A stretch of DNA of 64,000 nt, taken from positions 1-64,000 of IMG/VR virus record IMGVR_UViG_3300002092_000035. The stretch is one strand, 5' to 3'. Shown here in pieces: positions 3,455 to 62,832 of this stretch (its first letter is position 1; each line of letters starts with the position of its first letter). This DNA is from a virus. Made by a program: the position numbers and the translations under genes. The notes below the pieces were generated by a model that had not been told where the DNA came from, did not search any database, and saw only the letters and a program-made list of their open reading frames with translations.

Positions 3455-3898
3455 GTGCTTAATATATTCCTATTAGATTTTTATACTCGCCTCAAAGCCT
3501 GGCATCAACTCAAAGAAGACCTTACTGGGGCAGACATAGAAACAATCTGCATTGAGGTTGATAGATTCTGGCAAAAGACGCCACTAAGTACAAGGTATCT
3601 TCACCATGACGAGATTGAATCTTGGCCTGATCCCTGGAATCTACTGAATGACAACACATATTGCCTCTACGGACGGGCATTAGGAATGATCTATACACTG
3701 ATGTTATTGGGTATGAAAGACATTGACTTTGTTGACGGAATAGATGATAATGATGAGAGTGTCGTATTAGTATTAGTGGATAACGCAAAATATATCATGA
3801 ATTGGTGCCCTGAGTCGGTGTTAAATACTAATCTATCAGCATTCAAGAACATTAGGTATTTGGATACCGATCCATTGGTAAAGAAAACAGGCAAATGA
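3455..3898 (+). CDS. hypothetical protein
   Basis: 147 aa ORF overlapping the nrdA start (ATGA). Confidence 0.65.
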   Translation: MLNIFLLDFYTRLKAWHQLKEDLTGADIETICIEVDRFWQKTPLSTRYLHHDEIESWPDPWNLLNDNTYCLYGRALGMIYTLMLLGMKDIDFVDGIDDNDESVVLVLVDNAKYIMNWCPESVLNTNLSAFKNIRYLDTDPLVKKTGK

Positions 3899-5547: not shown

Positions 5548-5645
5548 TTAAAATTAGAAAAATAACAGTAGAACCCACTGACGTTTATGATATATCTGTT
5601 CCTGAAACAGAGTGCTTCTTTGCAGACAATATCCTTGTCCACAAT
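5227..5645 (+). mobile_element. naturally split intein (IntN 106 aa 5227-5544; IntC 34 aa 5544-5645)
   Basis: Starts with Cys1, has TxDH, ends VYDISV...ILVHN followed by Cys+1; halves in different frames with ATGA overlap. Confidence 0.92.
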
Positions 5646-6623
5646 TGCGAGATCCTTCTTCCTACAAAGTCGTTCAAGCGGTTAGATGACGCTTCCGGCC
5701 GGATAGCCCTCTGCACCTTGGGGTCGGTAAATTGGGGAGCATTCCGCAATCCAGAAGATATGCGCCGTGTTTGTCGCATTCTACAGCGTAGTCTATGTAA
5801 CATCCTAGATTATCAAGATTTCTTGAGCATTCAGAGCAAGTTGAGCAATGATGAGATTCAACCGTTGGGTATCGGAATCACTAATCTCGCTTACTGGCAT
5901 GCGAAGCGTAACTATAAGTATGGTGAGCAAGATGCTCTACAAGATGTAAAGACATGGATGGAGCATCAGGCATTCTATCTCACCGAAGCGACAGTAGAAC
6001 TCGCAAAAGAACGCGGCGCCTGTTTGCATTCGGATAAAACAAGATACGGTCAAGGAATCTTCCCTTGGGAACTCAGAGCAACCGGAGTTAATGAACTTGC
6101 AGACTTTGCTCCTGAATTAGATTGGGAAACGCTACGTACTGACATGAAGCAGTACGGTGTTCGCAACGCGACATTGATGGCAGTTGCACCAGTTGAATCT
6201 TCATCTGTAGTCATCAACTCTACGAACGGTATTGAGATGCCGATGTCTCTGATCTCTGTGAAGGAATCAAAGGCTGGCTCATTCATTCAAGTTGTTCCGG
6301 AATATCACAAGCTGAAGAATAAGTATCAGATGATGTGGGAGCAGATAGATTGTGCAGGATATCTCAAGACTGCTGCTGTTCTCGCAGTATATGTTGATCA
6401 GTCAATATCTACAAATACTTTCTACAATCCAGCCCACTTCCCTGGTCGTAAGGTACCTACTACACTCATCGCTAAGAACTTGATGCAGGCTCATTTGTGG
6501 GGAATCAAGACTTTCTACTACTCACTAATCAACAAGCAAGGTAGTAAAGAGGAAGAAGAAGCACCGCTAGAGATAATTGACTTTGATGATGAAGATGAGT
6601 CCTGCGAATCTTGCAAGCTGTAG
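5544..6623 (+). CDS. nrdA: split intein C-half fused to ribonucleotide reductase alpha C-part
   Basis: HN/CEILLP, IALCTLGS, APVESSS, DQSISTN, KTFYY, C-terminal CESCKL. Confidence 0.95.
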   Translation: MIKIRKITVEPTDVYDISVPETECFFADNILVHNCEILLPTKSFKRLDDASGRIALCTLGSVNWGAFRNPEDMRRVCRILQRSLCNILDYQDFLSIQSKLSNDEIQPLGIGITNLAYWHAKRNYKYGEQDALQDVKTWMEHQAFYLTEATVELAKERGACLHSDKTRYGQGIFPWELRATGVNELADFAPELDWETLRTDMKQYGVRNATLMAVAPVESSSVVINSTNGIEMPMSLISVKESKAGSFIQVVPEYHKLKNKYQMMWEQIDCAGYLKTAAVLAVYVDQSISTNTFYNPAHFPGRKVPTTLIAKNLMQAHLWGIKTFYYSLINKQGSKEEEEAPLEIIDFDDEDESCESCKL

Positions 6624-11319: not shown

Positions 11320-13830
11320 ATGGCAGATTCAGGCGTTCAGAGTCCATTAGGAATCAATGTATTAGGGTCGGTGTTAAACAACACTGGCCTAAACATCAAC
11401 TCAGTATCTGCTGGTTATATGGGATCAAGCAAGACTAATGCAGATTATACATTTGGTAGTCTAGTTAACGACACTGTTTTGTATAATGTAACCCGTGCCA
11501 TTAATGCAGGTTATGGAGTTCTATCTGACGCGACTTACAACAATCTTATCTCTATCGGTGCAAATACTATCCCTGCATTAGGCAACTCTATTCCGCCTAC
11601 TTATCTTGCACAGGATCCTGCAGGAGTTTGGACTGATACTGCCCAAGCTATTGCTACTCAGCATAGCGTTACTCCGGCGATGGCTGCACCAGCTACATCA
11701 GGATATCCTATATCATATGGTAATACTGGTCAAGGACAAGATGCTTCATGGTTGCCTTATAACACGACGAATCCAAACAAAGCAGTAACTCAATGGGGTT
11801 ATATTAGACTACATGCATTACAAGCATGGAATGAATTCAACTGGAATGGGAATGCAGTAGATCAATCTACGCCTGAATATAAAGAGTTTTGCTCATCATT
11901 TCTGTCTTACAACTCAGCCGCATCCTCCTCTAATAAGTCTATCATATCTATTGGCAACTCTGACACTTTTATGCAGGGTGTTTATAGTAACATGAACGAT
12001 CTTATTACTGCTGATATAGCAGGGGTAAGCTTATCTACACTTGATTTCGGGAATGACCTGATTAATCAGGGAAAGATTATCAATCTAAAGAACATTGAGA
12101 CTTTCGGGTTACCCTCCAATCTACTTGCTACTTTAGGGCAAAACTATGCGATGACAGAAGACCTCATCCTTGCACTGTTGTCAGCAGGATTAACTAGAAA
12201 TGATATCACTTCAATATCAACCGGCAGTGCGTCTAACGTAAATGCACTCATAGAACAACAGATTTACGGGGCATTCTTGATCATTGTAGGAGAGAATCTA
12301 ACAAACATTCTCGCTATACTGCAATGCAATCTCCCTAATATCACTACGCTTGCAGACTTGTTGAATCTACGACTACTATTCCCTACTAGCTACGCATCTT
12401 TGACCGTGCCTATCTACAATGCTAATCCCGGACCTACTAATAGCAAGACATACTATCTTATCTATCAGGATGGAGGAGTAAATACCTCTCTGAGTGCTCC
12501 TGCTATTCAGAGTTACGTGGGAACTATAATTCCTTCAGGAACTCCTCCGACTAGAGACACTGCATTATCCCCGCAGAACTATTCGGAGTTGCCAATCGGA
12601 TTCAATTCATATTTAATAGGCATTCTTCCAAATGAGCAAGCAGTAGCAGCCGGCGCCTTCTCATACACGATGCAGCAGATCAAAAACATTAGAAACGTAG
12701 ACATCCTTAAGTTGGCTAAGGTCGCTCAAGGAATAGAGACTACTCTAGATTTGCCCCTAGTAGCAGGAACTGATAAACCTACAGCCCAATCAGCAACAGA
12801 TTACGGTAAGCAAGTATGTTCGTTAGGAAGCGGGCCTTCAGGGTCGTATACCCTTTCGGACTTCTTTGGTTGTATGTCTGGTTTACCTTATCCTTGGCAA
12901 CTCATACAACAGAGAATCAACCAACTTGCTACGAGCAACCTGTATAGCATCTATGAGCAACTGTACAACGCAGTGATAACATCAGGTTCAGTGCAGACTT
13001 ATATTGATCAAGCTAATTCAGAGATCGCTGCTATCAAAGAATCTAACCCAAACATCTCGCTCCATCTTAATACATATTGGAATATATGTGGAGATCAGTT
13101 GGCTAGAGAGCAAAGAGCAAGGTACACGAATCTCCCGCCAGTTTCTATTCCTAAAGATTATTTTCAGAATCAGTATCCAGCATCGCTATCTAACTTTGTA
13201 GACTCGGTCCCTACCTTTTCTACTGACACTAGACCACATATGGCTGCTCAAACGCTAGAAGCGATCAGTGATCTTAATGATCTAGGTGGCCAGAGCCTTG
13301 TTGCTATGATGAGACAAGAAAGAAATCAAGTCAGGCTCAGTAATTTAGGAATTGAGCCAGACAACAATATAGATGATCAACTAACACCTGTCCAAATTAA
13401 GACTGTGACGACTAACGGAACAATTGATGGAGCAACCAGCGGAATTCCTAGTTGTGGTAACGAGTATACTCTACCTGCCTGGCCAGGAAATGATCAAACC
13501 GGTAATGTTGTTACACCAGTACCATTAGGTATCTATGATTCTTCTATTGGCTTTCAATCAATCCCTACTAATATAGCAGGAGATATAACACAAATCTTAG
13601 ATTGTAATCCTAATCCGGTAGCAAACCCAGTAGTGCCAGCCGGTCCAGTAAATAGCGGACCTGCTATTAGCATTGTCATCATCGCTCCACCGTCTGAATA
13701 CGATCCTACTAATCTGCCACCTAATCTAAATCCTAACTTTATTAGTAGCACGTTACTTCCTGCAAGTCCTAGTGTATCTGCTGCCATTGAGCATGTGATC
13801 ACTTGTAACTGTGATTGCTGGGTGCATTAA
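11320..13830 (+). CDS. large virion-associated hypothetical protein
   Basis: 836 aa, follows PAAR, ends TCNCDCW. Confidence 0.6.
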   Translation: MADSGVQSPLGINVLGSVLNNTGLNINSVSAGYMGSSKTNADYTFGSLVNDTVLYNVTRAINAGYGVLSDATYNNLISIGANTIPALGNSIPPTYLAQDPAGVWTDTAQAIATQHSVTPAMAAPATSGYPISYGNTGQGQDASWLPYNTTNPNKAVTQWGYIRLHALQAWNEFNWNGNAVDQSTPEYKEFCSSFLSYNSAASSSNKSIISIGNSDTFMQGVYSNMNDLITADIAGVSLSTLDFGNDLINQGKIINLKNIETFGLPSNLLATLGQNYAMTEDLILALLSAGLTRNDITSISTGSASNVNALIEQQIYGAFLIIVGENLTNILAILQCNLPNITTLADLLNLRLLFPTSYASLTVPIYNANPGPTNSKTYYLIYQDGGVNTSLSAPAIQSYVGTIIPSGTPPTRDTALSPQNYSELPIGFNSYLIGILPNEQAVAAGAFSYTMQQIKNIRNVDILKLAKVAQGIETTLDLPLVAGTDKPTAQSATDYGKQVCSLGSGPSGSYTLSDFFGCMSGLPYPWQLIQQRINQLATSNLYSIYEQLYNAVITSGSVQTYIDQANSEIAAIKESNPNISLHLNTYWNICGDQLAREQRARYTNLPPVSIPKDYFQNQYPASLSNFVDSVPTFSTDTRPHMAAQTLEAISDLNDLGGQSLVAMMRQERNQVRLSNLGIEPDNNIDDQLTPVQIKTVTTNGTIDGATSGIPSCGNEYTLPAWPGNDQTGNVVTPVPLGIYDSSIGFQSIPTNIAGDITQILDCNPNPVANPVVPAGPVNSGPAISIVIIAPPSEYDPTNLPPNLNPNFISSTLLPASPSVSAAIEHVITCNCDCWVH

Positions 13831-13877
13831 ATATTACCTCTGAGTCTTTAGAGCATACATAATATAGAGGAGTATCC

Positions 13878-14981
13878 ATGACATATTTATTTACAAGCGA
13901 GTCCGTGAGCGAAGGTCATCCGGACAAGGTCGCCGATGCAATCAGCGACGGTATCCTAGACATGTTTATGTCGCATCGTGATCCATTTATGAGATGCGCC
14001 TGTGAAACACTAGTTACAACAAATCAAGTCATTATTGCAGGAGAATACAAAGGTCCGGTAATTGACAACCTAGATTTGGAGTATTTGATTCGCAAGGTCG
14101 TTAAGAATATCGGATACGAACAAGAAGGTTTTCATTGGCAAAACTTACAAATTTCTAATCTTATGCATGGACAAAGTGACGACATTGCATTAGGCACCGA
14201 TAACTTTGGTGCAGGTGATCAAGGATTGATGTTCGGATATGCATGTGATGAGACGCCAAACTTTATGCCGGCTCCTCTCTACTACAGTCATACTATCGTA
14301 GAAGCATTATCACATTGGCGAAAGAACAAAAATGTTCTTTGGTTAGGTCCTGATGCAAAAAGTCAAATTACGATGGAATACAATGATGATGCTACTGTCA
14401 ATCGCATTGATAAGATCGTCTGTTCAACGCAGCATCATCCAGATGTGAGTATTGAGGATGTGAGATCGGGTGTAGAAACTATCATTCGGGCTGCCCTTCC
14501 TGAAAATCTCGTTGACGACAACACGCAATTTCTTATCAACCCAACTGGAAGATTTGTGATCGGTGGTCCAGATGGTGATACTGGTTTGACTGGCCGCAAG
14601 ATCATTGTTGACACATATGGTGGCATGGCACCGCATGGTGGTGGAGCATTCTCTGGTAAAGATCCTACTAAGGTTGATCGGTCAGCATCATACATGGCTC
14701 GTTATCTTGCAAAGAATATTGTTGCATCGGGTCAGGCAAAATGGGCTCAAATTCAGTTGAGTTATGCGATTGGAATGCGAGATCCAACAAGCGTGTATGT
14801 TGAGAGCGACGGTGACAGCAGAGAGTTAACTAAGTGGATTATTGACAATGTTGATCTCACTCCGACTGGTATTATCAATCGTTTCAACTTATTCTCTCCT
14901 ATCTATAGCTCAACTACTAACTACGGTCATTTCGGTAAAGATTATCTACCTTGGGAAAAAGTGGATCTTTTTAAACAATGA
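13878..14981 (+). CDS. metK: S-adenosylmethionine synthetase
   Basis: FTSESVSEGHPDK, GAGDQG, GGGAFSGKDPTKVDRS. Confidence 0.97.
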   Translation: MTYLFTSESVSEGHPDKVADAISDGILDMFMSHRDPFMRCACETLVTTNQVIIAGEYKGPVIDNLDLEYLIRKVVKNIGYEQEGFHWQNLQISNLMHGQSDDIALGTDNFGAGDQGLMFGYACDETPNFMPAPLYYSHTIVEALSHWRKNKNVLWLGPDAKSQITMEYNDDATVNRIDKIVCSTQHHPDVSIEDVRSGVETIIRAALPENLVDDNTQFLINPTGRFVIGGPDGDTGLTGRKIIVDTYGGMAPHGGGAFSGKDPTKVDRSASYMARYLAKNIVASGQAKWAQIQLSYAIGMRDPTSVYVESDGDSRELTKWIIDNVDLTPTGIINRFNLFSPIYSSTTNYGHFGKDYLPWEKVDLFKQ

Positions 14982-30575: not shown

Positions 30576-32504
30576 ATGCAAAAGAAAAAACTGACCTTTG
30601 TCAACCCTAATTTTCAACAAGGCCCAAGAGAATTTAATGCGTATTATCTTCCTTATACGACCGGCGTGTTGTGGAGCTATGCGATACAATTTGAAAATAT
30701 CAGAGATAATTACTCCTTAGGTGGGTTCATCTGGCGACGCGATGATATACAAACTGTAATAGAATCTCTCATGGATAGCGATATTGTTGTGCTATCTACA
30801 TACATATGGAATAGGTCTTACAATCATGTTGTCGGTAGAGAATTAAAAAAAGCCAATCCTAACGTGTTTATAATGGCAGGAGGTCCGGAACCGCCGGTAT
30901 CCGATCCCAACTTCTTTGAGCGGTTTCCGTATATAGATGTCTGTGGGGTCCAGGAAGGGGAACGGTCTTTCACTGCGGTCCTAGAAGAACATCTTAAAGA
31001 GAATCCTGATTATACTCATATCAAAGGATTGTTGGTAAATGATAACGGCAAGACGATCAACACTGGACCCGCTGTAAGAATAGAAAAGTTAGATGACATT
31101 CCTAGCCCGTACCTTACAGGAATTTTTGATGATCTTGTCAGAGAAAATCCAGATATCAACTGGAACGTTACTGTAGAAACGAATCGCGGATGTCCCTATA
31201 TGTGCACCTTTTGTGACTGGGGAAGTCTGACCTATAGTAAAGTAAAGAAGTTTGACATAGAACGGGTGTTTAAGGAACTAGATTGGGCGGGCCAACAGGA
31301 ATGTGACTATTTACATTTTACTGATGCTAACTTCGGCATCTTTCCTGAACGTGACATGTCTATTGCAAAGAAACTCGTAGCTGTTCAGAAAGAATACAAT
31401 AATCCTAAGACATATGGCATGGCTTGGGCAAAAAACCAGAAGAAAGAAGTCGTTGATATCGTCAGAGTGTTGATGAATGAAGGCGGCAACAAGATTGGTC
31501 TCAATCTTTCAGTACAGACAATGGATGAGAACACCCTAGATATCATTAAACGAAAAAATCTGGGAATGAACCAAATTGAAGAAGTATTCCAACTGTGTGA
31601 AGAGAATGGTATTCCTTTATTTACTGAATTGATTTTGGGCCTGCCAGGGGAAACACTTGAAACTTGGAAGAATAACTTCTACGCATTGTATAAAGCAGGT
31701 AACCATACTGGTATTACTGTATATCAAGCACAGTTGCTTGAGAATGCAGAGATGAACCTTACCCAGAAGCAAGAGTATGATCTAAAGGGGCAAATTGTAT
31801 ATGATTATCTAGTAGGAACGTACAACGAACACGAACTGCGTGAAGGCGTTGAAGTAGTAGTATCTACTAGGGACCTTACTCCCGAGAAGATGAATCAAGC
31901 ACAGGTTCATTCTTGGTATCAGAATACTTTTCATATTGACGGTATCACCAATTACATCAGTCGTGCATTATATAAACTGTATGGAATAGAATACGCTGAT
32001 TTCTATGAAGGACTATTTGAACATATCAAAACTGATTTCTGGCTAAATTCAGAAGTAGAACGTATCTCAAAGTATTTTCGAGGATGGGGAGAACAAGGTG
32101 CTATCAATCACCCTCCTATTCAAGGCATTGAGATTCACGGACACAACCTGATCTATTCAACAATCATCAACATCAGTAGCCAAAATAAACATGACCACAT
32201 CTTAGATGTAGTAGAGTCTTATCTTCGTAAAACTTTCGTCATTGAAGAATCGCTATTACAAGATATGATGACCCTGCAACGAAACTATCTGATAGACCAT
32301 GTTAATATCAAATCCTATCCTAAAATAATTAAGTTTAAACATGATATAGTAGGGTATGTACAAGGACAATGTGATATTGATACTCCTGCTGAATATGAAT
32401 TTGATTTTCCAGAAGACAAAGACATGAATCTAAAAAGATTCTGTGAACAACTTTTCTTCGCTCGCCGCAGGAATTTTGGTAAAGCGTGGTTAACTAAGTT
32501 GTAA
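30576..32504 (+). CDS. B12-binding radical SAM protein
   Basis: STYIWN, GGPE, ETNRGCPYMCTFC, DANFG. Confidence 0.88.
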   Translation: MQKKKLTFVNPNFQQGPREFNAYYLPYTTGVLWSYAIQFENIRDNYSLGGFIWRRDDIQTVIESLMDSDIVVLSTYIWNRSYNHVVGRELKKANPNVFIMAGGPEPPVSDPNFFERFPYIDVCGVQEGERSFTAVLEEHLKENPDYTHIKGLLVNDNGKTINTGPAVRIEKLDDIPSPYLTGIFDDLVRENPDINWNVTVETNRGCPYMCTFCDWGSLTYSKVKKFDIERVFKELDWAGQQECDYLHFTDANFGIFPERDMSIAKKLVAVQKEYNNPKTYGMAWAKNQKKEVVDIVRVLMNEGGNKIGLNLSVQTMDENTLDIIKRKNLGMNQIEEVFQLCEENGIPLFTELILGLPGETLETWKNNFYALYKAGNHTGITVYQAQLLENAEMNLTQKQEYDLKGQIVYDYLVGTYNEHELREGVEVVVSTRDLTPEKMNQAQVHSWYQNTFHIDGITNYISRALYKLYGIEYADFYEGLFEHIKTDFWLNSEVERISKYFRGWGEQGAINHPPIQGIEIHGHNLIYSTIINISSQNKHDHILDVVESYLRKTFVIEESLLQDMMTLQRNYLIDHVNIKSYPKIIKFKHDIVGYVQGQCDIDTPAEYEFDFPEDKDMNLKRFCEQLFFARRRNFGKAWLTKL

Positions 32505-32525
32505 GTAAAATATCTTCACCGGCAA

Positions 32526-32753
32526 ATGGCAATACAGATACGACAGCTTAAAGAATGGAAAGGATACAATTCCTTTACCGTTCCCATTGTATTTGGAATT
32601 CCTATCCCTGACCAAAACGATGTAAATCTATTGAAATCTCAGTATCCAGGAAACTATCATGTTCTGCTGACAACAATCGGAAATTCCTTTGAGAATTGTA
32701 TCGTGTTTGATGATCCAACAGAAGAATCGTTTTTTATATTGAAGTATCTATAG
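32526..32753 (+). CDS. small protein related to the 48.6-50.5 kb paralog family
   Basis: C-terminus VFDDPTEESFFILKYL. Confidence 0.55.
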   Translation: MAIQIRQLKEWKGYNSFTVPIVFGIPIPDQNDVNLLKSQYPGNYHVLLTTIGNSFENCIVFDDPTEESFFILKYL

Positions 32754-32768
32754 ACGATAAGTATTATC

Positions 32769-33755
32769 ATGACTAAAAGAATATTGGTATGCGGGGCCGG
32801 TGGATTTATCGGAACACATTTAGTAGAGAGCCTTAAGGCACAAGGTCACTATGTGGTAGGTGCAGATTTAAAAAAGCCACAATACACTACTTCATCAGCA
32901 GATAGATTTTATCAATCATGTGATCTCCGTGACAAGTATTATGTAGAGAAGCTGTTTATACAAGAATCTTTTGATGAGATTTATCAGTTGGCGGCAGATA
33001 TGGGTGGCGCTGGATATGTTTTCACTGGAAAACATGATGCAGATATCATGCACAACTCAGCGTCTATCAATCTAAACATCGTATCTGCGATGATAGCACA
33101 CAATGTAAAGAAAGTGTTTTATAGCTCGTCTGCGTGTATTTATCCTGAATACAAACAACTGGATCCAGATAATGTCTGCCTAGAAGAATCAGCAGCATAC
33201 CCAGCAGCCCCGGACAGCGAATACGGTTGGGAGAAGTTATTCTCTGAGAGATTGTATATGAATTATGCTAAGAACTACGGCATAGATGCCCGTATAGCAC
33301 GATTTCATAATGTATTTGGACCTAAAGGTTCTTGGAATAATGGCAAAGAGAAGTCTCCTGCTGCACTGTGCCGAAAGGTAGCAATGGCAAACGAAGGGGA
33401 TGAAATAGAAGTCTGGGGTAACGGAACTCAGTCTAGATCATTCCTTTACATAGACGAGTGTATTGAAGGCATACACAGAATTATGGAAAGCGACTATGCG
33501 TCGCCGCTAAATTTAGGAAGCGAACGCCAGGTATCTATCAATGAACTTGTGGGCATAATATCTAGGGCAGCAAACAAAAAAGTAAAAATCAATAATGTTC
33601 CTGGACCGACGGGTGTCATGGGTAGAACATCAGACAATAATCTTCTGCGTAAAACATTAGACTGGACCCCTGATGAAGATTTAGAAGGGGGCATATTAAA
33701 GACTTATCGTTGGATCGCCGAACAAATAGCACAAGGGAAATCAGATGAAAATTAA
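32769..33755 (+). CDS. NAD-dependent epimerase (GDP-mannose 3,5-epimerase-like)
   Basis: GAGGFIG, LAADMGG, YSSSACIYP, YGWEK. Confidence 0.9.
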   Translation: MTKRILVCGAGGFIGTHLVESLKAQGHYVVGADLKKPQYTTSSADRFYQSCDLRDKYYVEKLFIQESFDEIYQLAADMGGAGYVFTGKHDADIMHNSASINLNIVSAMIAHNVKKVFYSSSACIYPEYKQLDPDNVCLEESAAYPAAPDSEYGWEKLFSERLYMNYAKNYGIDARIARFHNVFGPKGSWNNGKEKSPAALCRKVAMANEGDEIEVWGNGTQSRSFLYIDECIEGIHRIMESDYASPLNLGSERQVSINELVGIISRAANKKVKINNVPGPTGVMGRTSDNNLLRKTLDWTPDEDLEGGILKTYRWIAEQIAQGKSDEN

Positions 33756-35055
33756 AGTAGTTTACAACTGGATCGGTCCTGCTGGTCCCACTGATAACAA
33801 CTATCTTCCTAATGTGCTGAGTTTTGCACAGGCATTTGATGAAAATAATCATATTCCTCCTCAATGGAATGCAGATTGGACTTGGCAGCAGTTTTTCTCT
33901 CACGGGAATGAACATTTTGAGATTTGTCCTTCAGTAGCAATTAGTGAGAACGATGATAGTCTGTTTGTTTTTCCAGTCGCATTGTCTTGGAGAAATATTA
34001 TTCCAACTTATTATCTCAAAAATTTAGGCATCTTAGAGGCTTCGCGTATCCCAGCGAATATTTTAAACTGTATCAAACATCATAATGGTTATTTCGTTAT
34101 TGATTTTTCAGGGGAAGGTCACGGAATACGGGATACAGACTTTGATCATATGCATTCTTATTTTACTCATCTCAAAATCCCCTTGAGAAAAATTATATAT
34201 ATCACTGGATCATCAAACAGTGCAGATTTGTATGCCAAATACTGTTCAGGTAGAGGTATCTCTGCTACTGATAGGATGAACTTAGTGACTTATGTCAGGG
34301 GAACAGTGCATGTAGTCTCTAAAAGCATAAGTGAACCTGATTATGATAGTGAAACCGTTCCTAAAAAACTTTTCTTGTCTTGGAACAAAAGAACAAGAAA
34401 GCATCGCTTTGATATAGCATTACTGTTAGAGAAGCATGATCTAGTGGATAGAAGCTATCTGAGTTTTCATAATGAAGAGACCGGAATAGGATTCAAAGAA
34501 ACTTATCGTAATATAGGGGGAATTACCGATACGACTTTGGGCATAACACCTAAGGTAATAGATAGATTTGCTTCTAAATTGCCATTAGTGTTAGACGGTG
34601 AAACCAATCTCTATAAGATACTGTTTACTAATTTAGAGGTTACAACTAGACCGTTTTATCAAAATAGTCTGATCAGTCTTATAACAGAGACCCATTTCTA
34701 CGAAGAACATACATGTTTAACCGAAAAGTCATTCAAACAAGCCAAAGAGAAACACCCCTTTATTATCGTAGGCGGCGTAGGATCTCTCAAGTATCTGCGT
34801 GAATTAGGTTTTAAAACCTTTAGTGATTTCTGGGATGAATCTTATGATGATTGTAAGGATCCGGTAGAAAGAATGCAACGCATAGATTCTCTGATCAAAA
34901 ATATCGGTGAATGGACTCCGGAACAACTTCTAGATTTCAGACGAAAGGTCAAACCTATAGTAGAGCATAACTTCAAGGTGTTTGATACCGAAATGGTGAA
35001 AAATGCACTGAGGCTATCATTAAACAAAATCAATGATATAGTTACTGCTGTATAA
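33745..35055 (+). CDS. glycosyltransferase-like protein
   Basis: ITET..TEKSFK..HPF..GFKTF..WDESYD; paralog of 21053. Confidence 0.6.
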   Translation: MKIKVVYNWIGPAGPTDNNYLPNVLSFAQAFDENNHIPPQWNADWTWQQFFSHGNEHFEICPSVAISENDDSLFVFPVALSWRNIIPTYYLKNLGILEASRIPANILNCIKHHNGYFVIDFSGEGHGIRDTDFDHMHSYFTHLKIPLRKIIYITGSSNSADLYAKYCSGRGISATDRMNLVTYVRGTVHVVSKSISEPDYDSETVPKKLFLSWNKRTRKHRFDIALLLEKHDLVDRSYLSFHNEETGIGFKETYRNIGGITDTTLGITPKVIDRFASKLPLVLDGETNLYKILFTNLEVTTRPFYQNSLISLITETHFYEEHTCLTEKSFKQAKEKHPFIIVGGVGSLKYLRELGFKTFSDFWDESYDDCKDPVERMQRIDSLIKNIGEWTPEQLLDFRRKVKPIVEHNFKVFDTEMVKNALRLSLNKINDIVTAV

Positions 35056-35114
35056 AAATATATTGATCAGGCTGTTTGAGCGTAAATATCAATACAAACT
35101 TAATGAGAGGCTAA

Positions 35115-36299
35115 ATGAAAAAAATTGCGATGATTGGTGTTGGTAAGCTAGGCCAAGACTGTGCTGAAATGATGGCAGAGAAGCATGATGTAGTTGGGTA
35201 CGATGTATCACCGAGAAATCCAACTTTTCCAATGAAGGATACCATTAGAGAAGCAGTGGAAGGTAGAGAATTAATCTTTATCGCAGCTCCTACTCCACAC
35301 GATCCTGTCTATGGTGGCGAGACTCCTACGAGTCATCTTCCTAACAAGGACTTTGACTATACGATTGTTAGAGAGATTCTAGCCGAAGTCAACAAGTATG
35401 TTAACCCGACACAACTCGTCGTACTGATCAGCACTGTTCTTCCTGGAACAATTCGCAGAGAACTCCGCCCGGAAATCACCAACGCACGATTCATCTACAA
35501 TCCTTATCTCATCGCAATGGGAACTATCAAGTGGGACATGGTGAATCCTGAAATGGTAATTGTCGGTACTGATGACGGTTCTATCACAGGTGATGCGAAG
35601 GAACTGATTGACTTCTACAAGACATTCATGCAGAACGATCCAAGATACGAAGTTGGTACTTGGGATGAAGCAGAAGCTATCAAGATTTTTTATAACACCT
35701 TCATCTCTGCCAAAGTTGGTATCGTCAACATGATTCAAGATGTCGCTGAAAAGAATGGCAACATGAATGTTGATGTTGTGACAGGAGCACTCGCTCGCTC
35801 AAATTACCGCATTACTGGTCCAGCATACATGCAAGCAGGTATGGGCGATGGCGGAGCCTGTCATCCGCGTGATAATATCGCGCTACGCTACATGGCAGAA
35901 CAACTTGATCTAGGATATGACTTGTTTGATAGCATCATGCGAGCAAGAGAAGTTCAAGCTGAGAACATGGCCATGACTGTTCTTAACTATGGAAAGAACA
36001 TTACAATTGTTGGCAAGGCTTATAAGCCCGGCGTGCATTACACGAATGGTTCTTCTTCTATGCTCGTAGCATATTACATTGAGGAACAAGGTGGAACCGT
36101 CAACTACTATGATGAACACACCGGTGACCTAGATTTTAAGAGTGACACTACTGATGTCTATCTCATTGGCTACTGGGATGATTATGTGAAGGCACTGAAC
36201 TTCCCTGCTAAGTCGGTCGTGATTGATCCTTGGCGAAAGATTGATGATACGCAGCATTCCGGTAAGATCGTTCATTACGGCAATACCCGATTGATGTAA
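35115..36299 (+). CDS. UDP-glucose/GDP-mannose dehydrogenase family
   Basis: GVGKLG, PTP, STVLPGT, AEAIK..N, GGACHPRD. Confidence 0.9.
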   Translation: MKKIAMIGVGKLGQDCAEMMAEKHDVVGYDVSPRNPTFPMKDTIREAVEGRELIFIAAPTPHDPVYGGETPTSHLPNKDFDYTIVREILAEVNKYVNPTQLVVLISTVLPGTIRRELRPEITNARFIYNPYLIAMGTIKWDMVNPEMVIVGTDDGSITGDAKELIDFYKTFMQNDPRYEVGTWDEAEAIKIFYNTFISAKVGIVNMIQDVAEKNGNMNVDVVTGALARSNYRITGPAYMQAGMGDGGACHPRDNIALRYMAEQLDLGYDLFDSIMRAREVQAENMAMTVLNYGKNITIVGKAYKPGVHYTNGSSSMLVAYYIEEQGGTVNYYDEHTGDLDFKSDTTDVYLIGYWDDYVKALNFPAKSVVIDPWRKIDDTQHSGKIVHYGNTRLM

Positions 36300-44592: not shown

Positions 44593-45384
44593 ATGAGCAT
44601 TCTTGTAGCCATACTAACTAACCGTTTCCCCGATAAACTTGAACGGTGCATTGATTCTGTGAAATCGCAGACATCTGATATTGTTGTGGTCTGCAACACG
44701 CTTGACGTAGATTTTATACCCCGAGCCAGATATATTGCTGAATCTAATGATATTTCTTTTGTCATCACTGAATCAAATGGCACCCCGGCTAAAGGCAAGA
44801 ACTCAGTCCTAAATTATTTTACTAGAACCGACTATGAGTATCTATTCATCGTAGACGGTGATGATTTTCTAGGGAACAACGCGATTAGCAAGTTATCCAA
44901 AGTCATTGACGAGAATCCATGTGATGTGCTTACACTGGTATATGGCGAACAAGCATTAGTCGGTGATCAACGAATGTCAATCCTTGAATGGTCTACTACT
45001 GATGATTACAAACGAAAATTCACCACAAGAAAGACTGTTCGGAATATAAGACCGTTGTTGAAGATGAGAGAAGAATTGTATCGTATACTGCCATATAACA
45101 GATTCTTGCTCATATCTAAAAAAGCACTATCTTATTTTCAATTTGATGAGTCGTTGATTGGGTTGTCTGAGTATCACCTTTCTATAAAACTCTTGCACTA
45201 TACCAAAGATATCGTTTACAAAGGCTTATCTGCTAGCGACATCTATATATACGATGCTAATGATCCAGGCAACTATAGAAAGTTTATGGAAACGATTGAC
45301 GGAGAAGAGTTCGTCGGAAATCTATTACGTTCTTTAGATGAATACGACACCTCAGGAGGAATTGATGTCATTTCAGTTGGTTGA
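44593..45384 (+). CDS. glycosyltransferase family 2
   Basis: LERCIDSV, GKN, VDGDD. Confidence 0.8.
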   Translation: MSILVAILTNRFPDKLERCIDSVKSQTSDIVVVCNTLDVDFIPRARYIAESNDISFVITESNGTPAKGKNSVLNYFTRTDYEYLFIVDGDDFLGNNAISKLSKVIDENPCDVLTLVYGEQALVGDQRMSILEWSTTDDYKRKFTTRKTVRNIRPLLKMREELYRILPYNRFLLISKKALSYFQFDESLIGLSEYHLSIKLLHYTKDIVYKGLSASDIYIYDANDPGNYRKFMETIDGEEFVGNLLRSLDEYDTSGGIDVISVG

Positions 45385-45994
45385 TAGTAACGTAGCACTT
45401 GATTATATAGAACCGTTCTGCAAGGCAGCAGAGAATGATCCTTCCCCTGCTGCACAGAACATGATCATACCTAATTGGAAAAATTCTCCAGGATCTTTCC
45501 TCTATAAACTCTACGTTGACAAGATATACGACAAGGAAAACAAAGGTGGCTATCTGCTTCAAATTAAGGATGGCCAGATAATATCTGGATCCGGATTCAG
45601 CAGATGGAATGTAGATGAGAATGTATGTCTTTTATATTCTAGGACATACGTGCTGACTGAGCATAGAAACAATGGTGCACAAAGAGTAGGCAGATATAGC
45701 TGGGAACAACTCAAATACATGAGAGCATACCAGTATAAAGCAGGAATGATCACTTTCAATGAATACAATGCCCGACTCGTAGAACTTTTGAACGGGTATA
45801 ACTCTGCTGAACGGACCCACACTATAATAAACGGTGAATATTATAATCGTCACGGTAGAAAATTTGTACCTAGTATTACATACCCAAAAAAAGTAAACAT
45901 AAATCACACGAACCAGATAGTGGTATATTACTGTGATGATGCAAGTTATAAAGAAACTTTGTTAAATACGCTTAAGCAACATGAGATAGATTAG
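45365..45994 (+). CDS. GNAT-like protein
   Basis: RTYVLTEHRNNG motif A-like. Confidence 0.5.
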   Translation: MSFQLVDSNVALDYIEPFCKAAENDPSPAAQNMIIPNWKNSPGSFLYKLYVDKIYDKENKGGYLLQIKDGQIISGSGFSRWNVDENVCLLYSRTYVLTEHRNNGAQRVGRYSWEQLKYMRAYQYKAGMITFNEYNARLVELLNGYNSAERTHTIINGEYYNRHGRKFVPSITYPKKVNINHTNQIVVYYCDDASYKETLLNTLKQHEID

Positions 45995-46699
45995 GTGCTG
46001 TATCTTTTTACAATTTTAGGATGGATTTCTGTAGTAGCATTTGTTCCGATGTTGATGTATGCTACCTATTGGCAACTTGCTATCTGCGTATCAATGTATT
46101 TCATATACCAAACGTTCGGTGGAAACTTAGGTTATCATAGGCTTGCTAGTCATCGCTTATTCAACTGTCCTCGTTGGTTAGAACTCGTGTCAGTGACTAT
46201 AGGAGGATTGATGTTAAAATCTCCTGCAATCTATTGGGTAGCCCAGCATAATGCACATCACGCAAAGGCAGATACACTCGCTGATCCACACAGCATAGAG
46301 AGAAATGGATTCTTTAAAGCAGTCTTCATGATTCCAACCTGTTCAGATGGCATACAGATCAAGTATTATGCCCATCTCCTGCGTGACAAGTTTTACCTTT
46401 TTCAACGAGACTTCTATTGGTATATCATTGCGATTTATGTTTTGGTCCTCTATCTTATTGATCCTTTCTCGTTGGTCTATGCGTGGCTCGCCCCTTGTGG
46501 GCTCGTGCATATCGCTATGACGATGGCAGCGACATATTCACACCGCGGGGGTAAACCACACGATGACCCTATCTTTGCTCTATACAGCTTCGGTGAAGGT
46601 TGGCATAAGTTCCACCATGAGAACCCGAGAGAGTATAAGTTGCATCCCTCATTAGATATAACCGGAAACATTATTGATATGTTACGGGTCAAAAAATAA
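45995..46699 (+). CDS. acyl-CoA (delta-9-type) fatty acid desaturase
   Basis: His boxes HRLASH, HNAHH, GEGWHKFHH. Confidence 0.88.
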   Translation: MLYLFTILGWISVVAFVPMLMYATYWQLAICVSMYFIYQTFGGNLGYHRLASHRLFNCPRWLELVSVTIGGLMLKSPAIYWVAQHNAHHAKADTLADPHSIERNGFFKAVFMIPTCSDGIQIKYYAHLLRDKFYLFQRDFYWYIIAIYVLVLYLIDPFSLVYAWLAPCGLVHIAMTMAATYSHRGGKPHDDPIFALYSFGEGWHKFHHENPREYKLHPSLDITGNIIDMLRVKK

Positions 46700-47162: not shown

Positions 47163-47223
47163 CATAAAAAGGCTTGACATTGCACTAGATATTTTGTAAT
47201 ATGATATTACAAAGGAGATCAAA

Positions 47224-48620: not shown

Positions 48621-48875
48621 ATGGAAGAGATAGAGACATCCTTAGATGATTATTACATCACTTCTGGAATGCAATTGGTCGCCGACCTGGTCGGTTGGAT
48701 CAAAGTCGGCACCCATTTGCCTACTGGTGAGGTTTTGTATCTGCTTAGGCCTGAAATTGCAAGGTGGGTAGAAACACACCCGGCTCATCTTTGGTCTAAG
48801 CAGTCTAAACGTTTTATTGCACCATATACGATCAACGAAGAATTGTTATCTTGGATGATTTTGAAATGGCGATAA
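48621..48875 (+). CDS. paralog array member 1
   Basis: Ends SWMILKWR. Confidence 0.65.
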   Translation: MEEIETSLDDYYITSGMQLVADLVGWIKVGTHLPTGEVLYLLRPEIARWVETHPAHLWSKQSKRFIAPYTINEELLSWMILKWR

Positions 48876-48878
48876 CAG

Positions 48879-49157
48879 GTGAAAAATGCAAAAATAAGAA
48901 GAGTAATGATTATGGATAGGTATAGCGAACCAAAGCTAGAATTTAGACCAGCATCTAATCACCCGTTGGCTTTGGAGTATGCACTAGCTTATTATCCGGG
49001 TTGTTTTACTCCTACTGGATTAAGCGACTATCATACAAAAGAAGTCAAACAATGGTGCAAAGACAATAATTGTGGGGCGGTTGATTATTCTTATCCATAC
49101 ACTATCACTTTTCGTGATGAAAAAGAATTGGTTTGGTTTCTGATGAGGTGGACATGA
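48879..49157 (+). CDS. paralog array member 2
   Basis: Ends FRDEKELVWFLMRWT. Confidence 0.7.
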   Translation: MKNAKIRRVMIMDRYSEPKLEFRPASNHPLALEYALAYYPGCFTPTGLSDYHTKEVKQWCKDNNCGAVDYSYPYTITFRDEKELVWFLMRWT

Positions 49158-49471
49158 GTATGACATTAAGTAGAAAGATTGCACTAAACTCTACCTTTGG
49201 TCGCTTGGCAGAACATGACGCACCAAAGTTTAGGTGGCGTGATGGACATCCTGCAGGATACACGGATGATCTTGGCATCATTGCGGACCGTAACCAATGG
49301 GTAGATGCAGTGTCTTCTGGGTGGGTTTCCAATATCCAGCTGCACCAGGTCGAACCAATCCGAGAATGGTGTACACAGAATCTAAAGCACGGTTGCTGGC
49401 AGGTCGGCTTCTACTCTATATTTCTGAAAAATGAAAAAGATGTCGCTTGGTTTCTGTTGAGGTGGTCATGA
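49154..49471 (+). CDS. paralog array member 3
   Basis: N-terminal RKIALNSTFG; ends EKDVAWFLLRWS. Confidence 0.7.
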   Translation: MSMTLSRKIALNSTFGRLAEHDAPKFRWRDGHPAGYTDDLGIIADRNQWVDAVSSGWVSNIQLHQVEPIREWCTQNLKHGCWQVGFYSIFLKNEKDVAWFLLRWS

Positions 49472-49677
49472 CAACCTTTAAGTCAAATGGATATATGATG
49501 ACTGTTCCGGTGCTTCATCGGGCATATTATTCACCTAAGGAAGATTGGACCGCCGTTTATAGATGGTGTAAAGAAAACTGTAAAGGTAGGTGCTATACTA
49601 GTCCAAGTTGGGCCGGATACTTTGTTGAGTTTGAAGACGATGAAGACATGGTATGGTTTGGATTGAGGTGGTCATGA
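49468..49677 (+). CDS. paralog array member 4
   Basis: Ends FEDDEDMVWFGLRWS. Confidence 0.7.
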   Translation: MTTFKSNGYMMTVPVLHRAYYSPKEDWTAVYRWCKENCKGRCYTSPSWAGYFVEFEDDEDMVWFGLRWS

Positions 49678-49928
49678 CCACCCTAATCGCATACAACGAC
49701 TCGTTTATTTTTGAACGCAAAAGGGTTCAACGCCGCAAAGGTGGTTGCAGGAACATGTATGTGATCTCACTCAAATCATTCAGCGTTGCATCTAGTGAAA
49801 GAGCAGAAATACGAAAGACCATAAAAACCTTAAAGGGAACATTCATACATTCAATGTACTGGTCTGCTTCATTTCGCAAGCGAGAAGATGCTGAAAAGGC
49901 ATGGGTGTATCTGGCTTTGAAGTGGTAA
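49674..49928 (+). CDS. paralog array member 5
   Basis: Ends AWVYLALKW. Confidence 0.65.
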   Translation: MTTLIAYNDSFIFERKRVQRRKGGCRNMYVISLKSFSVASSERAEIRKTIKTLKGTFIHSMYWSASFRKREDAEKAWVYLALKW

Positions 49929-50146
49929 TGGTGAAAATTCGTATCAACCTGCGAGAACGAATGCCGGTATATCTAGAAAATTGGACACTCGCACACAATA
50001 TCCATCACGCTAAGTGGAAATATGTGGTGAGCAAGTTCGCCGCAACCACAAATGGAAAAATAGAGGGGCCCTATGGTTCACCGATATATTATCTAGTTTT
50101 TGAGGACGATAAGGACGCAACCTGGTTTTTATTGAAATGGTCATGA
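49928..50146 (+). CDS. paralog array member 6
   Basis: Ends FEDDKDATWFLLKWS. Confidence 0.7.
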   Translation: MVKIRINLRERMPVYLENWTLAHNIHHAKWKYVVSKFAATTNGKIEGPYGSPIYYLVFEDDKDATWFLLKWS

Positions 50147-50487
50147 ACACGAACGCTAAAGTCATTATATCGTTAATCAAACGGACCAGTGCTGCATCGC
50201 TTGCAGCACAAATAGCAGGTGTGCAGCCCATGACTGGTCCAGTTGGGCAAATCTTTGGGCTAAGACCTAGTATCCGCCAGAGAATTAAACCAGAGTTTCT
50301 CTACAATTCATGTCCCCGTGCAGGATATTATTCTAAGGTTGATCCAGAAGACTTTGTGGGAATATACGATTGGTGCAATAAGAATTTTGAAAATGAATTT
50401 TGGAACACACTGATTGACGAACACGGATACGAGGTTTTCCTTCAGAACGAGAAGGATGTTACCTGGTTTCTGATGAGGTGGTTATGA
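50143..50487 (+). CDS. paralog array member 7 with capsid-like N-terminal peptide
   Basis: ISLIKR..QIAGVQPMTGPVGQIF; ends EKDVTWFLMRWL. Confidence 0.7.
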   Translation: MNTNAKVIISLIKRTSAASLAAQIAGVQPMTGPVGQIFGLRPSIRQRIKPEFLYNSCPRAGYYSKVDPEDFVGIYDWCNKNFENEFWNTLIDEHGYEVFLQNEKDVTWFLMRWL

Positions 50488-50781
50488 GAATCATAGATGC
50501 GTTTATCAATTGGAATGATCGCTATAATCCATTCTGTATTGTCGTAAATTGGATAACAAGAAAATTGTTATTGTAAAAACATACTTGACATTATGTTAAA
50601 AGTAGTATATTATTACGATAATGAGTAGAAACACTAAAGAAATTATACTACTACTATGGTTTCTAACGTTCGCTTTTTTGTTGTGGATATTTTTTCTGAC
50701 TGTGGTGCTTGTATCACGAATTCTATTCGCGATAGACAAAATGCTCATCACAAACAGAAAACTATTTAAGAGGATCAGACG

Positions 50782-62632: not shown

Positions 62633-62832
62633 CAAGTTTTCCACAATAAAAAGTTAACATAATCTCTTTCAGTCTCAAAGAGGAACACAAAACTATTCCA
62701 TTGATCACGATGATCTTCTGTGTATTTCCAGTCAGACTGGCAATTCCTCACGCACCAATCTACGACAGATTGTAACTCACCATACTTCGTAGTGACAGTA
62801 GCCTTAAAGGCTGTCTGGGTATTGATGGACAT
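62632..62832 (-). CDS. small protein related to paralog family
   Basis: WC..NC..W..FLFETERDYVNFLLW. Confidence 0.6.
   Translation of the reverse strand: MSINTQTAFKATVTTKYGELQSVVDWCVRNCQSDWKYTEDHRDQWNSFVFLFETERDYVNFLLWKT

What the first reader, a model, noticed from the sequence alone, without database searches (positions are those of the whole stretch)
49154..50487. Array members display peptides resembling core phage proteins (gp23 Gol region; PolB motif B): possible immune decoys
Seen: the 50143 gene begins ..IISLIKRTSAASLAAQIAGVQPMTGPVGQIFGLR, matching the T4-type major capsid segment (..VRRAIPNLIAFDICGVQPM..PTG..F). In T4 this is the Gol peptide that triggers the Lit defence protease. 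The 49154 gene begins RKIALNSTFG, resembling family B polymerase KxxxNSxYG; this is a shorter, weaker match. Inference: the shared C-terminal domain is a scaffold presenting fragments of defence-triggering proteins to titrate host sensors or interfere with competing phages.
Basis: partly seen in the sequence, partly recalled or inferred. Interest (0 to 1): 0.78.

Follow-up and report, generated by a model that had tools for sequence, protein, structure and literature searches.

The report
Phage mini-proteins displaying core-protein motifs
An uncultured giant T4-like phage carries a row of tiny genes that join one small folded domain to short copies of the most conserved stretches of essential phage proteins (clearly the capsid protein, possibly the DNA polymerase). 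The design recurs in many phages, including two that can be grown in the lab, but its purpose is untested.

Summary

- **Capsid piece.** Gene 50143-50487 carries a true homologue of the gp23 "Gol" block at residues 5-52 (Pfam Gp23, E 1.5e-10). It aligns to T4 gp23 residues 94-129. It is fused to a ~48-residue alpha-beta-beta-alpha domain shared by all seven array genes.
- **Polymerase piece.** Gene 49154-49471 starts with a motif that looks like PolB motif B. It is not significant alone. However, 28 distinct relatives keep exactly the Q-K-I..N..Y-G positions.
- **Family size.** There are 8, 17 and 29 copies in three related ~360-kb phage genomes. There are 32 hits in the cultured Sinorhizobium phage Phosso and 5 in Agrobacterium phage Atu_ph07.
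- **Other heads.** Other members carry four different conserved gp23 blocks, the ribonucleotide-reductase active-site loop, and a piece of an unknown 628-residue protein.
- **Level of conservation.** Heads are about 50% identical in DNA to the phage's own genes, so what is conserved is the peptide. Heads are predicted disordered and the scaffold folded.
- **Function.** The decoy or mimic function is untested. I give it about 0.3.
- **Earlier work.** This scan has met the same design before on other DNA (e1-5358976, e1-5342551, e1-4035658). I found no published description in phages. The nearest in print is the ankyrin fusions of Bodo saltans virus.

The parts
47174..47202 (+). Sigma-70-like promoter (TTGACA, 17 nt, TAATAT). 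It probably drives the transcription unit 47224 -> array.
   Evidence: No terminator-like site and no stronger promoter lie between it and the array. No T4-type late-promoter motif lies near the array. Early timing is an inference.
48621..48875 (+). Array gene 1 (84 aa), a family member. Its scaffold is homologous to that of a relative's Gol-headed member. Its own head may be a decayed Gol block, but this is not significant.
   Evidence: E 5e-7 to the family HMM. E 3e-11 to G2 13507-13854; head versus gp23, E 7.8.
48879..49157 (+). Array gene 2 (92 aa), a family member. A metagenomic relative (P0019) carries an extra head that weakly resembles the gp23 helix block.
   Evidence: E 1e-16. P0019 versus Gp23 profile positions 170-219, E 0.028.
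49154..49471 (+). Array gene 3 (105 aa). It has a disordered head (residues 1-20) with a PolB-motif-B-like string at residues 7-16 (nt 49172-49201), followed by a folded core (residues 21-105).
49468..49677 (+). Array gene 4 (69 aa), the commonest family type. No recognisable core-gene head.
   Evidence: (E 6e-25).
49674..49928 (+). Array gene 5 (84 aa), a divergent family member.
   Evidence: P0011; E 2e-8.
49928..50146 (+). Array gene 6 (72 aa), a family member.
   Evidence: P0012; E 5e-13.
50143..50487 (+). Array gene 7 (114 aa): gp23 Gol-block head, linker and family scaffold.
50155..50298 (+). The gp23-derived head within gene 7 (residues 5-52). A run of 12 residues around the GVQPM motif is identical to the gp23 of two complete relatives.
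50341..50484 (+). Constant C-terminal domain of gene 7 (residues 67-114), alpha-beta-beta-alpha, pLDDT about 90.
62635..62832 (-). A lone eighth family member (66 aa) outside the array.
   Evidence: (E 3e-7).

Best explanation
The array 48621-50487 belongs to a large, undescribed family of phage mini-proteins built from two modules.

Module 1 is a constant folded scaffold of about 45-85 residues. It ends in a helix with the W-F-x-L-R-W signature.

Module 2 is a variable, unstructured N-terminal 'head'. In a sizeable minority of members the head is an old copy of one of the most conserved linear blocks of an essential phage protein, kept at the peptide level. Gene 7 carries the Gol block of the major capsid protein. 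Gene 3 probably carries motif B of the family-B DNA polymerase.

Proposed mechanism (inferred, not shown): the genes are transcribed from a host-type promoter before late proteins appear. The exposed head then competes with the same stretch of the real (nascent or unfolded) protein for whatever binds it. For the Gol head that would be EF-Tu and the defence proteins that read short capsid motifs (Lit-type, CapRel-type). The scaffold keeps the peptide soluble and may prevent productive activation.

Shown here: homology of the capsid heads, recurrence, peptide-level conservation, folded scaffold with disordered head, and family size.

Inferred: early timing, any binding partner, and any benefit to the phage.
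For: Homology of the gene 7 head to gp23:
- (T4 residues 94-129).

The same block is fused to family scaffolds elsewhere:
- Two further genes of a complete 364-kb relative: E 5e-12 and 6e-7.
- A high-GC metagenome contig.

Other gp23 blocks serve as heads:
- The C-terminal block: P0146, P0148 and P0151 at 36-44 bits, against a shuffled maximum of 30.3.
- The A-K-x-R-x-L-K-A-x-W block: a profile of 11 heads hits gp23 first, at E 6e-4.
- Phosso gene L159:1321-1701.

An RNR active-site loop serves as a head in the relative: 10 of 12 residues identical.

Heads map to conserved blocks of gp23: mean conservation 0.52 against 0.37 overall, permutation p 0.004.

DNA identity of heads to the phage's own genes is only 0.48-0.56, and many identical residues use different codons.

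Type-B heads keep K, N, Y and G at 0.89-0.96 with variable positions between them.

AlphaFold2 models: heads have pLDDT below 50-60 and scaffolds 84-94.

Family size and spread.

A host-type promoter lies upstream and no late-promoter motif is nearby.

[quoted passage not shown] Lit and CapRel read short capsid motifs, and many defence receptors sense core phage proteins (preprint 10.64898/2026.01.04.697583).
Against: - No binding, expression or phenotype data exist, and no RNA run was listed.
- Free Gol peptide activates Lit, so a plain copy could harm the phage.
- The RNR and PolB motifs are buried catalytic loops, which are odd baits for sensors of folded proteins.
- Most family members (including genes 2, 4, 5 and 6 here) have heads with no detectable source, so head display may not be the family's core function.
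- The conserved-block result is biased, because copies of poorly conserved segments would no longer be detectable.
- The PolB assignment of gene 3 is not statistically secure.
- An earlier, similar case in this scan (e1-4035658) was later priced at only 13/100 for the mimicry reading.
Confidence: 0.3

Rival explanations
1. Recombination by-products. The array is a fast-shuffling cassette region: each gene's 3' end is a repeated sequence that also forms the next gene's ribosome site and start. Core-gene snippets were captured by illegitimate recombination as passengers. They persist only because they are harmless N-terminal tails, and the scaffold alone carries the (unknown) function.
For: - Stop/start overlaps and a repeated 3' end are present.
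- Most members lack any recognisable head.
- Close variants of gene 3 differ mainly in the head while the remaining 83 residues are identical, which suggests head swapping.
- Some gene callers start gene 7 at an internal Met after the GVQPM motif (P0003, P0005).
Against: - The DNA has diverged to about 50% identity while the motif residues stay put. Neutral tails of that age should be unrecognisable.
- The same Gol block sits on at least three unrelated backbones and in phages of very different GC content.
- Captured pieces come from conserved blocks, not random parts of the genes (with a detection-bias caveat).
Confidence: 0.22
2. Self-targeting address tags. The head docks the scaffold onto the cognate protein's folding or assembly intermediates by replacing the equivalent segment. 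This either assists or regulates the phage's own assembly, or poisons the homologous proteins of a co-infecting related phage (a dominant-negative effect).
For: - Heads are copies of segments that make conserved intramolecular or intersubunit contacts.
- In the gene 7 model the first strand and helix of the head pack weakly against the scaffold, so the scaffold has a free strand edge.
- Jumbo-phage genomes in this clade are rich in weapons against competitors, such as homing nucleases and inteins.
Against: - The core motif is identical to the phage's own protein, so self-poisoning would be expected.
- Catalytic loops of RNR and PolB are not assembly interfaces.
- The packing in the model has low confidence.
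Confidence: 0.15
3. Footprints of, or helpers for, mobile elements. The copied blocks are classic intein and homing-endonuclease insertion sites. The heads are remnants of target-site flanks, or serve the mobility or immunity of such elements.
For: - The window's own RNR gene is split by a split intein inserted exactly inside the active-site loop (between the two Cys of S-N-L-C/C-E-I). That is the same loop copied as a head in the relative.
- PolB motifs are known intein sites (established knowledge).
- First-stage notes report nuclease cassettes with gene remnants among this genome's tRNA genes (e1-5984348, not checked).
Against: - No nuclease or intein domain is found in any array protein.
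- The arrays are not next to gp23, PolB or RNR.
- DNA identity to the targets is about 50%, too low for recognition or recombination.
- The coincidence is also expected simply because both phenomena favour the most conserved motifs.
Confidence: 0.08

Closest known systems
Gol region of T4 gp23 in the Gol / Lit / EF-Tu exclusion system (prophage e14)
   Same: It is the same stretch of the major capsid protein (gene 7 residues 7-42 align to T4 gp23 residues 94-129). It is the most conserved block of gp23. It acts as a short linear peptide that binds EF-Tu (PMC3014915).
   Different: There the peptide is part of the capsid protein and is the trigger of a host suicide protease. Here it is a separate, probably early-expressed mini-gene of the phage, fused to a scaffold. 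Whether it binds EF-Tu, triggers or blocks anything is unknown.
[quoted passage not shown] 2018, PMC5871332)
   Same: An expanded paralogous gene family of a giant virus in which a constant binding scaffold is fused to fragments of the virus's own essential genes (DNA polymerase, MutS). The authors proposed a decoy role.
   Different: That is a eukaryotic giant virus with an ankyrin scaffold, and the idea was never tested. Here it is a tailed phage with an unrelated ~48-residue alpha/beta scaffold and short linear motifs rather than domain fragments.
Other head-plus-handle mini-protein families noted earlier in this scan (e1-5358976 'LRW cassette', e1-5342551, e1-4035658, e1-5759298)
   Same: The same design: tiny tandem genes, one shared small module, and conserved capsid, portal or replication blocks as the variable part. 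e1-5358976 appears from its description to be this same LRW family.
   Different: These are unpublished AI notes on other genomes. Several use different handles at the other end of the protein. None has functional data.
Phage anti-defence mimics and sponges (e.g. Ocr DNA mimic, Tad/Acb nucleotide sponges)
   Same: Small, early phage proteins that act by occupying a host factor rather than by catalysis (established knowledge).
   Different: None of them is a copy of the phage's own structural or replication protein, and none comes as an array with interchangeable baits.

Membership tests
Gp23 major capsid protein (Pfam PF07068) | Significant match to the family profile | tested here: met
   E 1.5e-10, 41.5 bits against a cut-off of 24.4, for gene 7.
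Gp23 major capsid protein (Pfam PF07068) | Covers the whole capsid fold (about 376 profile positions), so it could be a capsid subunit | tested here: not met
   Only profile positions 5-51 are present. The rest of the 114-residue protein is the array scaffold. It is a fragment, not a capsid protein.
Gol peptide (cofactor of the Lit protease) | Corresponds to the Gol region of T4 gp23 | tested here: met
   It aligns to T4 gp23 residues 94-129. [quoted passage not shown] The exact published residue numbers were not available in the texts I read.
Gol peptide (cofactor of the Lit protease) | Binds EF-Tu domains II-III and enables Lit cleavage of EF-Tu | not testable with these tools
   This needs biochemistry or a complex prediction. 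Only monomer folding was available.
Family B DNA polymerase, motif B (K-x3-N-S-x-Y-G) | The motif is present with its invariant residues | tested here: inconclusive
   Gene 3 has R-K-I-A-L-N-S-T-F-G, with Y replaced by F. Local alignment to the relatives' PolB motif B scores 42, with about 10 of 18 positions identical. BLAST gives 24 bits, within noise. The profile gives E 3.6. The pattern is unique to PolB among 216,107 residues.
Family B DNA polymerase | Polymerase fold or domains (PF00136) | tested here: not met
   No PF00136 match anywhere in the 91-kb record. Gene 3 is 105 residues long with an unrelated fold.
W-F-x-L-R-W scaffold mini-protein family (unnamed, undescribed) | C-terminal ~45-residue alpha-beta-beta-alpha domain with conserved W...F..E.D..WF.LRW, always at the C-terminus of 50-145-residue proteins | tested here: met
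   All seven array genes meet it. The profile finds 56 representatives, all 51-141 aa with the domain at the C-terminus. Model pLDDT is about 90.
W-F-x-L-R-W scaffold mini-protein family (unnamed, undescribed) | Occurs in tandem arrays with overlapping stop and start codons in large T4-like phage genomes | tested here: met
   The window array; arrays in the 361-kb and 364-kb relatives; Phosso; L163.
BsV-type fusions of essential-gene fragments to an expanded scaffold family | Expanded paralogous family carrying fragments of the virus's own essential genes | tested here: met
BsV-type fusions of essential-gene fragments to an expanded scaffold family | Ankyrin-repeat scaffold | tested here: not met
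   No ankyrin or any other Pfam family on the scaffold. This is an analogy of design, not membership.
Homing endonuclease / intein remnants | Nuclease or intein domain, or adjacency to the target gene, or DNA homology with it | tested here: not met
   No such domain. The arrays are far from gp23, PolB and RNR. DNA identity is 0.48-0.56.

The most novel reading that the evidence does not exclude
Giant T4-like phages keep an interchangeable library of bait peptides: exposed copies of the invariant linear motifs of their own capsid, polymerase and reductase proteins, mounted on one small scaffold and made early. The library would pre-occupy or disarm host factors that read those motifs on nascent phage proteins (EF-Tu with Lit-type or CapRel-type sensors, and perhaps sensors still unknown). 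This would be a counter-defence by self-mimicry.
Probability: 0.2. Interest if true: 0.88.

Novelty: categorically new. Interest (0 to 1): 0.72.

Why it matters
Bacterial immunity is now known to sense most of the core phage proteome, and Lit and CapRel read short capsid motifs. No phage countermeasure based on copies of the phage's own conserved peptides has been described.

If these mini-proteins are baits, their heads would be a ready-made catalogue of the linear motifs that hosts (or rival phages) recognise. That catalogue includes motifs for which no sensor is yet known, such as the PolB and RNR loops.

The family is present in two cultured phages: Sinorhizobium phage Phosso (32 copies, including a capsid-headed one) and Agrobacterium phage Atu_ph07. 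The question can therefore be tested with ordinary genetics.

If they turn out to be junk, they still document an unusual mode of gene birth by cassette shuffling in jumbo phages.

Tried and rejected
- The 342,875-bp Logan contig that holds near-identical copies of genes 3 and 7 could not be fetched. The window phage's own gp23 and PolB therefore remain unseen, and no codon-level dN/dS on close orthologues was possible.
- **Expression.** No RNA holder was listed for the array.
- **Scaffold annotation.** The scaffold has no match in Pfam, PHROGs, NCBIfam or PADLOC.
- **Scaffold fold.** Structure searches gave only generic two-layer alpha/beta matches (best Z 6.1 and 5.9) and unnamed phage proteins.
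- **Absent from closest cultured relatives.** The family was not found in the closest cultured relatives by capsid sequence, Vibrio phage 2.275.O and Klebsiella phage K64-1.
- **Rejected: DNA-level function.** Heads as homology arms or nuclease targets is rejected, because DNA identity to the phage's own genes is about 50%.
- **Rejected: P0141 as PolB motif A.** P0141's head fits a 628-residue protein of unknown function better (score 58 against 31).
- **Unproven: PolB motif A in the relative.** The PolB motif-A look of relative gene G2 202112-202390 stays unproven (score 45, not the top BLAST hit).
- **Not supported: gene 1 head.** Gene 1's head as a decayed Gol block is not supported (E 7.8).
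- **Wider scans for gene 7.** Viral and metagenome contig scans found only a true gp23 (L002) and one high-GC array (L163).
- **Late promoter.** The T4 late-promoter motif is not enriched and is absent near the array.
Full report
**What is at the coordinates.**
- Window 48621-50487 holds seven small plus-strand genes of 69-114 residues. Their stop and start codons overlap or abut.
- All seven end in the same module of about 45 residues. An eighth, solitary member lies at 62635-62832 on the minus strand.
- A sigma-70-like promoter lies at 47174-47202, upstream of the three genes that precede the array. The next strong one follows the array at 50585-50613.
- The T4 late-promoter motif is absent from this region. 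The array is therefore probably read by unmodified host polymerase, that is early. This is an inference.

**The capsid piece is real.**
- Residues 5-52 of the last gene (50143-50487) match Pfam Gp23 above its curated cut-off (E 1.5e-10, profile positions 5-51 of 376). They also match the PHROG of major head proteins.
- tblastn finds gp23 genes of 812 phages.
- Against solved T4 capsids, the stretch aligns to residues 94-129 of full-length gp23.
- A T4 review (PMC3014915) describes the Gol region as a 29-residue stretch within the first quarter of gp23. It is the most conserved part of the protein, it binds EF-Tu domains II-III, and it thereby lets the Lit protease cut EF-Tu.

**The phage and its relatives.**
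- The record containing the window is 91 kb, an estimated quarter of the genome. It has no full gp23 and no PolB.
- A search with an 836-residue window protein found two complete relatives with terminal repeats, of 360,683 and 364,247 bp. I fetched both whole.
- They encode a 398-residue gp23, a 902-residue PolB and a 774-residue RNR.
- Their gp23 is 67% identical to that of Vibrio phage 2.275.O and 57% to Klebsiella phage K64-1. This places the clade among the giant T4-related phages.
- A 12-residue run around the GVQPM motif of gene 7 is identical to these relatives' gp23, whereas T4 differs there. The head therefore comes from this clade's own capsid gene.

**The family is large.**
- A profile of the shared module found 56 representative proteins among 1.8 billion. 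All are 51-141 residues long with the module at the C-terminus.
- A wider alignment found 92 clusters, on contigs of up to 512 kb.
- A local HMM counts 8, 17 and 29 members in the window's record and the two complete relatives, mostly in tandem arrays.
- The family has no match in Pfam, PHROGs, NCBIfam or PADLOC. ESM Atlas neighbours are all unnamed viral clusters.

**The fusions are not one-off.**

Gol-block heads elsewhere:
- The 364-kb relative has two more Gol-block heads on two different family backbones (E 5e-12 and 6e-7).
- A high-GC metagenome contig has another, inside its own array.

Other sources of heads:
- Among about 77 distinct heads of the gene-3 subfamily, several are the C-terminal gp23 block (36-44 bits, against a shuffled maximum of 30.3).
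- Eleven carry the gp23 A-K-x-R-x-L-K-A-x-W block. Their profile hits gp23 first among 618 large ORFs, at E 6e-4.
- One protein carries two blocks in tandem (P0088).
- One member of the relative begins with the RNR active-site loop, with 10 of 12 residues identical.
- Another head (P0141) matches a 628-residue protein of unknown function.

On an alignment of seven diverse gp23 proteins, the four head-mapped segments have mean conservation 0.52 against 0.37 for the whole protein (permutation p 0.004). The Gol block is the single most conserved stretch. One caveat applies: copies of poorly conserved segments would no longer be recognisable, so this test is biased toward the result.

**The polymerase piece.**
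- Gene 3 (49154-49471) starts with a string that aligns to motif B of the relatives' PolB at about 10 of 18 positions. PolB is its best hit among the large ORFs, but at a noise-level score.
- BLAST against phages and a head profile do not reach significance.
- Two facts favour the reading. The pattern is unique to PolB motif B in 216,107 residues. And 28 distinct homologous heads keep Q, K, I, N, Y and G at 0.82-0.96 while the positions between them vary at 0.25-0.39. These are the residues that define motif B.
- I regard the assignment as likely but unproven.

**Peptide, not DNA.**
- Heads are only 0.48-0.56 identical in nucleotides to the genome's own genes. Many shared residues use different codons. 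This excludes recent duplication, homology arms and nuclease target mimicry.
- With the pattern, it argues for long-term selection on the peptide.
- A close variant of gene 3 (P0007) differs at about half of the head positions while the remaining 83 residues are identical. Heads therefore also get exchanged.

**Structure.**
- AlphaFold2 models give a confident scaffold. For gene 7, residues 67-114 form alpha-beta-beta-alpha at pLDDT about 90. For gene 3, residues 21-105 have block means of 67-94, and 91-94 from residue 51 onward.
- The heads have low confidence: mostly 30-59 in gene 7, and below 50 for residues 1-20 of gene 3.
- Fold searches return only generic two-layer alpha/beta matches (Z at most 6.1) and unnamed phage proteins.
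- The scaffold has no conserved polar residues that suggest catalysis. It looks like a handle.

**Mechanism.**

The anatomy fits a display design: a folded handle, an exposed conserved peptide, many interchangeable versions, and probably early expression.
- The most economical function is competition for whatever reads these linear motifs on the real proteins.
- For Gol, a partner is known in principle: EF-Tu, with Lit. A 2026 preprint shows that many receptors sense core phage proteins. It notes that Lit and CapRel, unlike Avs receptors, read short motifs, and that EF-Tu is also built into the capsid-sensing Avs7 complex.
- Against this, free Gol activates Lit, the catalytic loops are buried in native proteins, and most members have heads of no traceable origin.
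- I put the mimicry reading at about 0.3 and neutral recombination by-products at about 0.2. The alternatives involving docking onto the phage's own proteins, poisoning a competitor's proteins, or mobile elements rank lower.
- One coincidence is worth recording. The window's own RNR is split by a split intein inserted exactly inside the loop that serves as a head in the relative. This may only reflect that both phenomena favour invariant motifs.

**Known or new.**
- I found no description of such phage genes in four literature searches or in a comparative review of jumbo phages.
- The nearest published parallel is the ankyrin-repeat family of Bodo saltans virus. [quoted passage not shown]
- This scan has noted the same design several times on other DNA. 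That includes what seems to be this same family (e1-5358976), and a checked case in which the mimicry reading was later priced at 13/100 (e1-4035658).

**A route to experiment.**
- The family model hits the cultured Sinorhizobium phage Phosso 32 times and Agrobacterium phage Atu_ph07 5 times.
- Phosso has a 126-residue member headed by the gp23 C-terminal block. It also has a separate 226-residue protein containing a Gol block.

Noticed in passing
window 3895-6623: The ribonucleotide reductase large subunit is encoded as two ORFs joined by a split intein. The N-extein ends in the active-site S-N-L-C, and the intein starts with C-V-T-G-D-T. The second ORF starts with the C-intein, which ends in V-H-N, followed by C-E-I-L-L-P. 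The insertion point lies inside the same loop that a relative's mini-protein copies as its head.
   Followed up: partly
window 62635-62832 (-): A solitary eighth member of the scaffold family (66 aa), 12 kb from the array, on the other strand among the putative structural genes.
   Followed up: partly
window 48621-48875: Gene 1's scaffold is homologous (E 3e-11) to a relative's member that has a clear Gol head. Gene 1's own head lines up with the Gol block at the right place (V-G...P-T-G...L-R), but without significance. It may be a decayed copy.
   Followed up: partly
window 50484-50576: A 30-codon ORF starts inside the stop codon of the last array gene (ATGA overlap) and ends just before the next promoter at 50585-50613. 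It lacks the family module.
   Followed up: no
L103:2112-2390 (-) and L103:1469-1810 (-) (364-kb relative, record positions 202112-202390 and 201469-201810): These are neighbouring array genes of the relative. One begins with a D-V-N-S-M-Y-P string like PolB motif A (unproven). The next begins with the RNR active-site loop (10 of 12 identical).
   Followed up: partly
L102:3248-5134 (+) (364-kb relative): A 628-residue protein with no PHROG match whose residues 193-209 are copied as the head of a metagenomic mini-protein (P0141). If heads mark essential conserved proteins, this unknown protein is probably one.
   Followed up: no
L163 (metagenome contig JACCDR011917299.1, 1753 bp): A high-GC phage fragment with at least five tandem mini-genes ending in variants of the same C-terminal helix. 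The first is headed by a long gp23 N-terminal piece that includes the Gol block.
   Followed up: partly
L158:1396-2076 (+) (Sinorhizobium phage Phosso): A 226-residue Phosso protein carries a Gol-like block followed by a glycine-rich, collagen-like stretch and an acidic tail, with no family scaffold. Capsid-block copies therefore also occur on other carriers.
   Followed up: no
window 44593-46699 and 30576-36299: Auxiliary genes that are unusual for a phage: glycosyltransferase, a fatty-acid-desaturase-like membrane protein, B12-binding radical SAM enzyme, nucleotide-sugar epimerase, UDP-glucose dehydrogenase and SAM synthetase (13878-14981).
   Followed up: no
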